From an uncultured Gammaproteobacteria bacterium (GTDB lineage Bacteria; Patescibacteriota; Microgenomatia; CAZETR01; Amesbacteraceae), in assembly GCA_964356705.1 (NCBI GenBank), contig CAYHIN010000001.1, positions 3,066 to 67,065 of the forward strand: a stretch of 64,000 nt of DNA. The letters run 5' to 3'. The notes beneath the pieces are model-generated. The model was not told the DNA's origin. It saw nothing but the letters and a program-made list of their open reading frames with translations, and ran no database searches. Of this stretch, positions 29,334 through 29,552 are shown piece by piece (position 1 is the first letter of the stretch; every line of letters starts with the position of its first letter). The translations under genes were made by a program, and so were the position numbers.

Positions 29334-29552
29334 AACTTCCGTTTTCTTTTTACTTTAAACTAGTAGTAGTAATTAGTAGGCCCTGTTGATATCCGGATAA
29401 CTTTTCATTTTTCATTTCAGTTTTCGGGTTAATTCAGTGTTGATAACCTGTGCACATACTATCTGTTTTATCCCTAATAGATTGTGCATAACTTCTGCAA
29501 ACTTATACATGATACTTAATACAAAATACATAATACAAAGCTTATCCCCAAA
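29334..29552. promoter_or_regulatory. candidate oriC (dnaA-dnaN intergenic) with DnaA-box-like 9-mers and AT-rich heptamer repeats
   Basis: TTATCAACA, TTATCCCCA, TTATGCACA and TTATCCGGA lie within 220 nt. ATAC-heptamer tandem repeats at 29501-29540. Divergent rpmH/dnaA context. Confidence 0.45.

What the first reader, a model, noticed from the sequence alone, without database searches (positions are those of the whole stretch)
29334..29552. Probable oriC between dnaA and dnaN with divergent rpmH-rnpA-yidD-yidC-jag operon nearby
Four DnaA-box-like 9-mers (1 to 2 mismatches to TTATCCACA) and an AT-rich block built from ATAC-heptamer repeats occur in 220 nt. Flanking gene order is the canonical origin context. 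A further box-like ATATCCACA lies at 30943-30951 upstream of dnaA.
Basis: partly seen in the sequence, partly recalled or inferred. Interest (0 to 1): 0.5.

Follow-up and report, generated by a model that had tools for sequence, protein, structure and literature searches.

The report
Conserved oriC without a GC-skew switch
The dnaA-dnaN spacer carries a conserved DnaA-box plus DnaA-trio unwinding module and is very probably the chromosome origin of a groundwater CPR (Amesbacteria-like) bacterium, yet the very strong GC skew keeps the same sign on both sides of it, as already reported for closed genomes of related lineages that may replicate mostly in one direction.

Summary
The 219-nt dnaA-dnaN spacer has six DnaA-box-like 9-mers with two or fewer mismatches, the densest cluster in the window. 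The gene context (dnaN, dnaA, rpmH-rnpA-yidD-yidC-jag) is confirmed.

A tandem box pair (29384-29400), a GCCC spacer and TAG/3'-GAT-5' DnaA-trios (29358-29379) sit next to an A/T-rich stretch at the dnaN start. This is a basal unwinding system (BUS). The strict pattern is unique in the window and is conserved in 17 related CPR spacers.

The "ATAC-heptamer block" is not origin-specific. It is one of six such arrays in the window and part of a clade-wide excess of 7-nt-period arrays.

GC skew is about -0.22 overall, and 0.5-0.77 at fourfold sites. It never changes sign across 64 kb, nor in seven related loci.

Verdict: a canonical oriC in a lineage with one-signed skew. This suggests unidirectional or highly asymmetric replication, with direction unresolved.

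The parts
28209..29333 (-). dnaN (DNA polymerase III beta clamp), 374 aa
   Evidence: Pfam DNA_pol3_beta N, central and C domains, E 1e-23 to 3e-26
29334..29357 (.). A/T-rich stretch (25% GC) between the trios and the dnaN ATG. Inferred site of initial unwinding; it also carries the dnaN ribosome-binding site.
   Evidence: Sequence. An equivalent A/T-rich stretch follows the trios in all aligned relatives. Function is inferred.
29358..29379 (+). DnaA-trio array. The + strand reads 5'-AAC TAG TAG TAG T AAT TAG TAG-3'. Read 3'->5' from the box side this is GAT GAT TAA, then a 1-nt phase shift, then GAT GAT GAT CAA.
   Evidence: Meets the BUS rule of at least 3 NAN trios with GAT next to the box (PMC8287927). 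A box followed by two proximal GAT trios occurs only here on both strands of the window. TACTA..ACTA columns are invariant in 8 spacers.
29380..29383 (.). 4-bp G+C spacer (GCCC on +) between the proximal box and the first trio
   Evidence: 4-bp spacer at the same place in relatives: AAAC, TCCC, ACCC, CCCC, GGGC/GGGT
29384..29400 (-). Tandem, 1-nt-overlapping DnaA-box pair. On the - strand it reads TTATCCGGA (29400-29392) then ATATCAACA (29392-29384), each with 2 mismatches.
   Evidence: The same 8-nt-offset pair occurs in relatives: TTATCCATATATCCACA in L163/L164, TTATCCAAATATCCACA in L162 and TTTTCCAC|TTATCCACA in L083-L085. The proximal-box columns TATC.AC are invariant.
29422..29430 (-). 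Conserved motif AACCCGAAA of unknown role, about 30 nt upstream of the box pair
   Evidence: Matched fully in 4 of the 8 aligned spacers, with one mismatch in three (L002, L165 and L166), not in L167; four of its columns are invariant in all eight, A123 and C125-C127
29438..29491 (.). Three further DnaA-box-like sites: TTATCAACA 29438-29446 (-), TTATCCCTA 29468-29476 (+), TTATGCACA 29483-29491 (-)
   Evidence: Equivalent sites are kept in L162-L164.
29505..29536 (+). Heptad array (ATAC-N3) x5, lying 17-48 nt 3' of the dnaA stop. A member of a dispersed family, not origin-specific.
   Evidence: Kept in L163/L164, replaced by CTAAACT x3 in L162, absent in the 56-60% relatives.
29542..29550 (+). 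DnaA-box-like TTATCCCCA (1 mismatch) abutting the dnaA stop codon
   Evidence: Present in L164, diverged in L162/L163.
29553..30914 (-). dnaA, 453 aa
   Evidence: Pfam Bac_DnaA E 1e-60, Bac_DnaA_C E 2e-20. An identical protein is on an independent ENA groundwater contig.
30933..30941 (+). ATATCCACA box 19-27 nt upstream of the dnaA start. Likely a dnaA autoregulatory site (inferred).
32479..34447 (+). rpmH-rnpA-yidD-yidC-jag operon, divergent from dnaA
   Evidence: Pfam Ribosomal_L34, Ribonuclease_P, YidD, 60KD_IMP, KH_KhpA-B + R3H

Best explanation
The dnaA-dnaN spacer (29334-29552) is the chromosomal replication origin of a Candidate Phyla Radiation bacterium of the Microgenomates group. Its closest named relatives are Candidatus Amesbacteria.

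It is built like the Bacillus subtilis incC basal unwinding system (BUS). Reading from dnaA toward dnaN, it has several weak DnaA boxes, then a tandem box pair (29400-29384), a 4-bp G+C spacer, a run of 3'-GAT-5' DnaA-trios carried on the window's + strand (29379-29358), and a short A/T-rich stretch that ends at the dnaN start codon.

Inferred mechanism: DnaA docks on the box pair through domain IV, oligomerises onto the trio strand through its AAA+ domain, stretches it and opens the adjacent A/T-rich DNA for helicase loading.

The absence of a GC-skew sign change is a property of the lineage, not evidence against the origin. One chromosome strand (the dnaA-sense strand) is strongly G-rich on both sides of the origin. 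The most economical reading is that one fork replicates (nearly) the whole chromosome, as Kadnikov et al. 2020 proposed for related closed genomes.

Shown here: the sequence architecture, its uniqueness in the window, its conservation, and the one-signed skew. Inferred: DnaA binding and unwinding, and unidirectional replication and its direction.
For: (1) Highest density of DnaA-box-like sites in the window.
(2) A box with two or fewer mismatches followed by two box-proximal GAT trios occurs only here on both strands of 64 kb. It satisfies the published BUS search rules for box mismatches, spacer length and trio number (PMC8287927).
(3) The same module sits at the same place (just before the dnaN start) and in the same orientation in 17 of the 18 related dnaA-dnaN spacers examined, the exception being L015: L002, L004, L006, L014, L026, L082-L086 and L162-L167. 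In an 8-sequence alignment with 61% mean column identity, 20 of the 30 invariant columns fall in the box-pair-to-trio block.
(4) In other CPR relatives that carry the same module, GC skew changes from negative to positive at this locus: seven loci, L004, L006, L014, L026, L082, L083 and L085. This ties the module to origin function in the wider group.
(5) Canonical gene context.
(6) One-signed skew is real and independent of gene orientation. GC3 skew is -0.43 for + genes and +0.40 on the coding strand for - genes. Fourfold-site skew is 0.5-0.77. The skew is also positive on both sides of dnaA in seven clade loci with 56-84% DnaA identity, with no reversed 2-kb bin.
(7) Closed genomes of Ch65, Collierbacteria and Beckwithbacteria show monotonic cumulative skew (PMC7143001).
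Against: There is no GC-skew polarity change at the spacer, which is the classical in-silico mark of an origin.

The window's own boxes are weak. None is perfect, and both boxes of the pair have 2 mismatches, whereas relatives have 0-1.

Only three trios are in phase with the box before a 1-nt phase shift.

The minimal BUS pattern is non-specific (100 hits in the window), so the case rests on the strict pattern plus conservation.

There is no closed genome of this lineage, so a skew switch outside the 64 kb cannot be excluded. No experimental data exist.

Under the usual rule (leading strand G-rich) the productive fork would run toward dnaN. That would place 62% of the window's coding bases, including the rpmH operon, L25 and groESL, head-on to replication.
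Confidence: 0.8

Rival explanations
1. The spacer is only a DnaA-box cluster that regulates dnaA/dnaN expression, or a decaying former origin. The active origin lies outside the window, and the window sits in the middle of one replichore.
For: There is no skew sign change anywhere in 64 kb. The boxes are degenerate in this genome. The minimal BUS pattern is common by chance.
Against: The trio, spacer and box block is the most conserved part of the spacer across 56-84% DnaA-identity relatives, while the rest has diverged. That is not expected of a relic, and trios have no known role in gene regulation. Related closed genomes have no skew extremum anywhere, so 'elsewhere' has no positive support. 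No sigma-70-like promoter or terminator was called inside the spacer.
Confidence: 0.1
2. The origin is here and fires in both directions, but the fork moving away from dnaN, through dnaA toward rpmH, is stopped within about 1-2 kb by a fork trap next to the origin. Effectively one fork copies the chromosome.
For: This is Kadnikov et al.'s first hypothesis. The BUS is canonical, so normal two-helicase loading is the default expectation (PMC10201434). The dnaA-rpmH gap is a variable insertion hot spot with unknown small ORFs.
Against: No gene or 2-kb bin with reversed skew lies upstream of dnaA in the window or in seven relatives. No dif-like site scores above shuffled controls. The ORFs between dnaA and rpmH are not conserved among relatives. 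No Tus or RTP-like family was found.
Confidence: 0.2
3. The origin is here, but the single productive fork runs the other way, through dnaA toward rpmH. It would be driven by the helicase that the DnaA filament guides onto the trio strand. The leading strand would then be the C-rich one, the opposite of the usual skew rule.
For: In the B. subtilis model the first helicase is loaded on the trio strand and would move toward the boxes and dnaA. In the window, 62% of coding bases, the rpmH operon, L25 and groESL are on the C-rich strand. In Ch65 the rRNA genes and 449 of 838 genes are on the C-rich strand. The G-rich strand is also A-rich at fourfold sites, which is not the classical C-to-T deamination signature.
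Against: G excess on the leading strand is the general rule in bacteria with measurable skew (established knowledge). dnaA and dnaN would be head-on. tmRNA, tRNA-Cys, leuS and tsaD are on the G-rich strand.
Confidence: 0.25
4. The box cluster is a chance feature of an AT-rich intergenic region.
For: The spacer is 31% GC, and box-like 9-mers are AT-rich.
Against: It is the unique density maximum, the strict pattern is unique, and the module is conserved across many genomes.
Confidence: 0.02

Closest known systems
Bacillus subtilis oriC incC basal unwinding system (DnaA-boxes 6/7 + DnaA-trios; Richardson 2016; Pelliciari 2021 PMC8287927)
   Same: It lies between dnaA and dnaN. The order is boxes, short G+C spacer, 3'-GAT-5' trios, A/T-rich DNA, dnaN. 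The boxes are tandem and in the same orientation. The trio strand is the same relative to the boxes.
   Different: The two boxes overlap by 1 nt (8-nt offset) instead of being separated by about 2-3 bp; this offset is conserved in CPR relatives. Only three trios are in phase before a 1-nt shift. The boxes are weaker. There is no large upstream incA/B box cluster, only one good box before dnaA. No skew switch occurs at the site.
One-signed GC-skew genomes of Microgenomates order UBA1400 (Ch65 'Chazhemtobacterium aquaticus', Collierbacteria, Beckwithbacteria; Kadnikov 2020, PMC7143001)
   Same: C greatly exceeds G on one strand regardless of gene orientation, with little AT disparity. The window has G 17.9% and C 28.2%, against Ch65 15.0/29.8, Collierbacteria 19.4/25.5 and Beckwithbacteria 20.7/28.3. 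Slightly more genes lie on the C-rich strand.
   Different: That paper did not locate oriC (it has no mention of dnaA) and did not include Amesbacteria. Here the skew is shown to pass unchanged through a conserved BUS-type origin, and the G-rich strand is shown to be the dnaA-sense strand. Only 64 kb is available here, not a closed genome.
Unidirectional theta replication of plasmids (own knowledge; cited as an analogy by Kadnikov 2020)
   Same: A single productive fork would give skew of one sign around the whole circle.
   Different: Those replicons use Rep proteins or RNA primers, not a chromosomal DnaA/BUS origin. Nothing plasmid-like is present at this locus.
pSM19035 parS: arrays of 7-10 contiguous 7-bp heptads (WATCACW) bound by the RHH ParB omega (PMC9499535)
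   Same: The ATAC arrays are 4-5 contiguous 7-bp units with an invariant core. They cluster near the origin, and at least 4 contiguous heptads is the functional threshold in pSM19035.
   Different: All units are direct repeats. Some arrays lie inside genes. The core sequence is different. No RHH or ParA gene is found in the window. Many other heptamer units also form arrays, which one binding protein would not explain.

Membership tests
Bacterial oriC with basal unwinding system (BUS) | DnaA box with no more than 2 mismatches to TTATCCACA (second box no more than 4) next to the trios | tested here: met
   ATATCAACA and TTATCCGGA, 2 mismatches each, same orientation. Rules from PMC8287927.
Bacterial oriC with basal unwinding system (BUS) | Spacer of 0-16 bp between a box and the first trio (mode 10-13 from the better/upstream box; about 4 bp after the proximal box) | tested here: met
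   4 bp from the proximal box and 12 bp from the distal box
Bacterial oriC with basal unwinding system (BUS) | At least three NAN trios on the correct strand, with 3'-GAT-5' favoured next to the box | tested here: met
   GAT GAT TAA in phase, then a 1-nt shift, then GAT GAT GAT. The strict form is unique in the window. Relatives have up to 7 in phase.
Bacterial oriC with basal unwinding system (BUS) | A/T-rich DNA beyond the trios | tested here: met
   29334-29357 is 25% GC. It is short (24 nt) and runs into the dnaN start.
Bacterial oriC with basal unwinding system (BUS) | Conservation of the module among relatives at the same locus | tested here: met
   17 of the 18 related spacers examined. 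20 of 30 invariant alignment columns fall in this block.
Bacterial oriC with basal unwinding system (BUS) | DnaA-, box- and trio-dependent strand separation; origin activity in vivo | not testable with these tools
   Needs a strand-separation assay or marker-frequency analysis
Conventional in-silico oriC (Ori-Finder-type criteria) | GC-skew / Z-curve extremum at the site | tested here: not met
   Cumulative skew is monotonic over 64 kb. Fourfold-site skew is positive on the dnaA-sense strand in all sixteen 4-kb bins.
Conventional in-silico oriC (Ori-Finder-type criteria) | DnaA-box cluster adjacent to dnaA or another indicator gene | tested here: met
One-signed-skew Microgenomates (Kadnikov 2020) | Strong excess of C over G on one strand, independent of gene orientation | tested here: met
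   also seen in L002, L003 and L162-L167
One-signed-skew Microgenomates (Kadnikov 2020) | Monotonic cumulative skew around the entire closed chromosome | not testable with these tools
   Only 64 kb of a contig of about 72 kb is available.
One-signed-skew Microgenomates (Kadnikov 2020) | Membership of GTDB order UBA1400 | not tested
   The closest named DnaA homologues are Candidatus Amesbacteria at 56-61% identity. Amesbacteria are not mentioned in the paper.
RHH-ParB heptad centromere (pSM19035 type) | At least 4 contiguous 7-bp repeats with a common core | tested here: met
   Six ATAC arrays of 4-5 units
RHH-ParB heptad centromere (pSM19035 type) | Cognate RHH protein and ParA ATPase encoded nearby | tested here: not met
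   No RHH, ParA or ParB family among the roughly 70 ORFs scanned. ORFs shorter than 70 aa were mostly not scanned.

The most novel reading that the evidence does not exclude
A canonical DnaA/BUS chromosomal origin that yields only one productive fork. This would be true unidirectional (or near-unidirectional) replication of a bacterial chromosome, producing neutral-site GC skew of 0.5-0.77 of one sign. It would be accompanied by a clade-specific, origin-proximal population of 7-nt-period arrays. These could be either binding arrays for an unknown origin or segregation factor, or the footprint of an unusual replication-associated mutational process.
Probability: 0.35. Interest if true: 0.8.

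Novelty: new member of a known kind. Interest (0 to 1): 0.55.

Why it matters
Bidirectional replication from oriC is treated as universal for bacterial chromosomes, and GC skew is the standard way to find origins and to validate closed metagenome-assembled genomes.

This locus shows that in one CPR lineage a perfectly ordinary-looking, conserved DnaA-box/DnaA-trio origin sits in DNA whose very strong skew does not flip. That has three consequences:
1. It gives a concrete origin for genomes where skew-based tools must fail. The published report of the skew anomaly did not locate one.
2. It fixes the geometry, namely which strand is G-rich relative to the boxes, the trios and dnaA. The unidirectional-replication hypothesis and its direction therefore become directly testable with read-depth profiles or a DnaA unwinding and helicase-loading assay.
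3. It warns that the skew criterion can wrongly reject true origins.

The origin-proximal heptad arrays are an additional, undescribed feature that may be linked to origin function or to the unusual replication mode.

Tried and rejected
(1) dif/terminus next to the origin. A PWM built from four dif sites gave a best score of 17.8, against shuffle maxima of 14.3 +/- 2.1 (up to 19). This is not significant, and one of the top hits was just the heptad array.

(2) Canonical parS. There were 0 matches with up to 3 mismatches.

(3) Spacer as plain promoter/terminator DNA. No sigma-70-like promoter or intrinsic terminator was called inside it.

(4) Known RNA in the origin region. There were no Rfam hits at E<=1 in 28000-37500.

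(5) Heptad arrays as mobile insertions. The copy in rnhA is not an insertion relative to homologues, and flanks are unrelated except between syntenic copies.

(6) Heptad arrays as sites for an encoded RHH/ParA system. No such genes are in the window.

(7) A step in neutral-site skew at the origin as evidence for a replication start/end discontinuity. Downstream exceeds upstream within each gene orientation (0.56 vs 0.36 and 0.72 vs 0.585; permutation P=0.007; same sign in 10 of 10 comparisons in relatives). However, the regression lines meet at the spacer and the relatives are syntenic, so the result is inconclusive.

(8) Extending beyond the window ends. The terminal genes are not on record.

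(9) My first assumption, that the first helicase loads on the strand opposite the trios, contradicted the published B. subtilis model and was dropped.

(10) Gene orientation as a guide to fork direction. It is mixed and not decisive.

Full report
**What is at the coordinates**

The 219-nt stretch 29334-29552 is the spacer between dnaN (28209-29333, -) and dnaA (29553-30914, -). Both genes are identified by strong Pfam matches.

The divergent operon is also real: rpmH (within 32479-32658), rnpA, yidD, yidC and jag/KhpB, all on the + strand at 32479-34447. About 1.5 kb carrying four small ORFs without family matches lies between dnaA and rpmH.

The spacer holds six 9-mers within two mismatches of TTATCCACA, three of them with one mismatch. 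It is the single densest such cluster in the window. The window contains no perfect box.

The ATAC-heptamer block is at 29505-29536.

Read on the dnaA-sense strand, the dnaN-proximal end of the spacer is TTATCCGG|ATATCAACA-GGGC-CTA CTA ATT A CTA CTA CTA GTT-TAAAGTAAAAAGAAAACGGAAGTT-ATG(dnaN).

That is a tandem DnaA-box pair, a 4-bp G+C spacer, a run of trinucleotides whose complement is the 3'-GAT-5' DnaA-trio, and A/T-rich DNA. It has the order and orientation of the Bacillus subtilis incC basal unwinding system (BUS). It meets the search rules published for BUS elements: a box with no more than 2 mismatches, a spacer of 0-16 bp, and at least three NAN trios with GAT favoured next to the box (PMC8287927).

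The minimal rule is not specific; it gives 100 hits in this window. A box followed by two box-proximal GAT trios occurs only here on both strands of the 64 kb.

**Comparative evidence**

The organism is a CPR bacterium. An identical DnaA is on a Hainich groundwater contig, so the locus is not an assembly artefact. The closest named homologues are Candidatus Amesbacteria at 56-61% identity.

I compared the dnaA-dnaN spacers of 18 related loci, and 17 of them (all but L015) show the same architecture just before the dnaN start. Examples:
- L002: TTATCCACA-AAAC-CTACTACTAGTACTACTAATT
- L082: ATATCCCCA-TCCC-CTACTACTAGTACTACTAATT
- L083: TTTTCCAC|TTATCAACA-ACCC-CTACTACTACTT
- L164 and, with a G in place of the A at the ninth trio-run base, L163: GTTATCCATATATCCACAGGGTCTACTAATTACTACTACTAGTT

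In an alignment of eight spacers from the clade (DnaA 56-84% identical, mean column identity 61%), 20 of the 30 invariant columns lie in the box-pair-to-trio block. Four more lie in the AACCCGAAA motif of unknown role at window 29422-29430.

In more distant CPR relatives with the same module, GC skew goes from negative to positive at this locus. This holds for seven loci: L004, L006, L014, L026, L082, L083 and L085. That links the module to origin function in the wider group.

On this basis I take the spacer to be oriC with about 0.8 confidence.

**The GC-skew test**

The window's + strand has 28.2% C and 17.9% G, a skew of -0.22. Cumulative skew falls monotonically from end to end.

The asymmetry belongs to the chromosome strand, not to genes. 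Third-position skew is -0.43 in + genes and +0.40 on the coding strand of - genes. At fourfold-degenerate sites, skew on the dnaA-sense strand is 0.23-0.77 in all sixteen 4-kb bins, mostly 0.5-0.77, and it never reverses.

The same holds in seven other loci of the clade. Upstream values are 0.135-0.23 (six loci; in L164 only 256 nt lie upstream of dnaA) and downstream values are 0.23-0.31, with no reversed 2-kb bin. Firmicutes loci fetched by the same query flip from about -0.2 to +0.2 at dnaA.

This anomaly is already published. Kadnikov et al. 2020 found near-linear cumulative skew around the closed chromosomes of Ch65, a Collierbacteria genome and a Beckwithbacteria genome. They proposed either an adjacent origin and terminus or unidirectional theta replication (PMC7143001). 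They did not locate the origin or discuss Amesbacteria, and I found no follow-up in the held library.

So the proposed refutation test is formally met but carries no weight in this lineage.

**How it most likely works, and what is uncertain**

The inferred sequence of events is as follows. DnaA binds the box pair, forms an ATP-dependent filament on the trio strand (the window's + strand), and opens the A/T-rich DNA at 29334-29357.

Skew of one sign on both sides implies that one fork copies essentially everything. Its direction is unresolved.

With the usual rule that the leading strand is G-rich, the fork runs from the origin through dnaN. That requires the helicase on the strand opposite the trios. 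In the B. subtilis model this is the second, DnaD/DRE-dependent loading event (PMC10201434).

The alternative is a fork driven by the trio-strand helicase, running toward dnaA and rpmH. This would make the C-rich strand leading. It would fit the 62% of coding bases in the window, and the rRNA genes of Ch65, that lie on the C-rich strand. It violates the skew rule.

The G-rich strand is also A-rich at fourfold sites (AT4 skew about +0.1 to +0.15). The asymmetry is therefore purine against pyrimidine, not the classical C-to-T deamination pattern.

A bidirectional start with an immediate fork trap is also possible. I found no reversed-skew segment, no significant dif-like site and no conserved candidate gene upstream of dnaA.

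Neutral-site skew is higher downstream than upstream of the spacer within each gene orientation (P=0.007, and the same sign in all ten comparisons in relatives). It looks more like an upstream gradient than a step, so I leave it as inconclusive.

**The heptamer block**

The ATAC block is not an origin-specific AT-rich element. The window has six (ATAC-N3)x4-5 arrays where 0.03 are expected, all with ATAC on the + strand:
- 6286-6317
- 28180-28204, just 3' of dnaN
- 29505-29536
- 33115-33146, between yidD and yidC
- 35827-35858, inside rnhA
- 36799-36830, inside the DUF4012 gene

Only the four-base cores are invariant. The spacers vary, and the flanks are unrelated except between syntenic copies. 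The rnhA copy is not an insertion.

At the dnaA 3' position the array is kept in L163 and L164, replaced by CTAAACT x3 in L162, and absent in the 56-60% relatives.

More broadly, period-7 arrays of about 24-35 nt with diverse units dominate the tandem repeats of this clade:

| Sequence set | Period-7 arrays / all arrays | Sequence searched |
|---|---|---|
| Window | 14 of 18 | 64 kb |
| Closest relatives (83-84% DnaA identity) | 23 of 23 | 45 kb |
| 56-60% relatives | 18 of 24 | 77 kb |
| Firmicutes | 6 of 33 | 207 kb |

Four-mer recurrence is elevated at lags 7 and 14 only in the clade. Ten of the 16 period-7 rows in the window fall in 28-37 kb, around the origin.

The ATAC family resembles the contiguous heptad centromeres bound by RHH ParB proteins (PMC9499535). 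However, no RHH or ParA gene is present in the window, and the diversity of units is not explained. This remains open.

**Verdict**

The locus is a new member of a known kind: a BUS-type oriC at dnaA-dnaN. It sits in a lineage whose already-described one-signed GC skew makes the standard in-silico test fail.

Its value is that it pins the origin, and the strand geometry, for testing unidirectional chromosome replication.

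Noticed in passing
window 6286-6317, 28180-28204, 29505-29536, 33115-33146, 35827-35858, 36799-36830: Six arrays of (ATAC-N3)x4-5, all in the same strand orientation, where 0.03 are expected. Cores are invariant and spacers variable. Two lie inside genes (rnhA, DUF4012), three immediately 3' of stop codons (dnaN, dnaA, yidD), and one (6286-6317) near the 5' end of the ORF 4538-6358 (-). Syntenic copies are kept in L162-L164, sometimes with a different core (GAAT, CTAAACT). They resemble the heptad arrays bound by RHH proteins, but no such gene was found.
   Followed up: partly
whole window; L002, L162-L167: Clade-specific excess of 7-nt-period arrays of about 24-35 nt with diverse units (TTTGGGA in dnaN and dnaA, CTACTCA in rnpA, CTTAGCA/CTTAGCG in wzy and tsaD, and others). 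4-mer recurrence is raised at lags 7 and 14. The signal is absent in Firmicutes and weak in other CPR. 10 of 16 arrays in the window lie within 28-37 kb, around oriC. Unexplained.
   Followed up: partly
whole window: Extreme strand asymmetry. Fourfold-degenerate-site GC skew is 0.5-0.77 on the dnaA-sense strand in genes of both orientations. That strand is also A-rich, so the asymmetry is purine against pyrimidine and not the classical C-to-T deamination signature.
   Followed up: partly
window 29422-29430 (-): The motif AACCCGAAA, about 30 nt upstream of the box pair, is matched fully in 4 of 8 clade spacers and with one mismatch in three more, down to 58% DnaA identity (not in L167); four of its columns are invariant in all eight. 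Role unknown.
   Followed up: no
window 30915-32478; L162 8138-9960; L167 8329-9786: The dnaA-rpmH gap is a variable insertion hot spot. The window has four small ORFs without family matches, L162 has a NUDIX gene, L167 has two other ORFs, and L163, L165 and L166 have no ORFs called in the roughly 740-770-nt gap between yidC and dnaA, which is too short for such an insertion.
   Followed up: no
window 6331-10626 and 20280-27712 (+): A T4SS-like cluster directly downstream of dnaN, conserved in position across the clade. It has nine ORFs, seven of them consecutive, with T4SS-pilin matches, PrgI, a VirB4/TraG-type ATPase, and giant ORFs of 1279 and 1509 aa with little or no family match.
   Followed up: no
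window 60469-61329: A LAGLIDADG-domain ORF (60559-61329, +) lies immediately next to tRNA-Cys (60469-60540, -). A 23S-rRNA-IVP-like ORF is at 52401-52940.
   Followed up: no
window 1049-1951 (-): tmRNA (Rfam 89.9 bits) is adjacent to smpB. ARAGORN did not call this tmRNA, but Rfam did.
   Followed up: no
window 53038-54983 (+): groES-groEL is among the few genes in the window (with several small + strand genes at 56717-61329) whose overall GC skew is about 0, presumably because amino-acid constraint offsets the strand bias.
   Followed up: no
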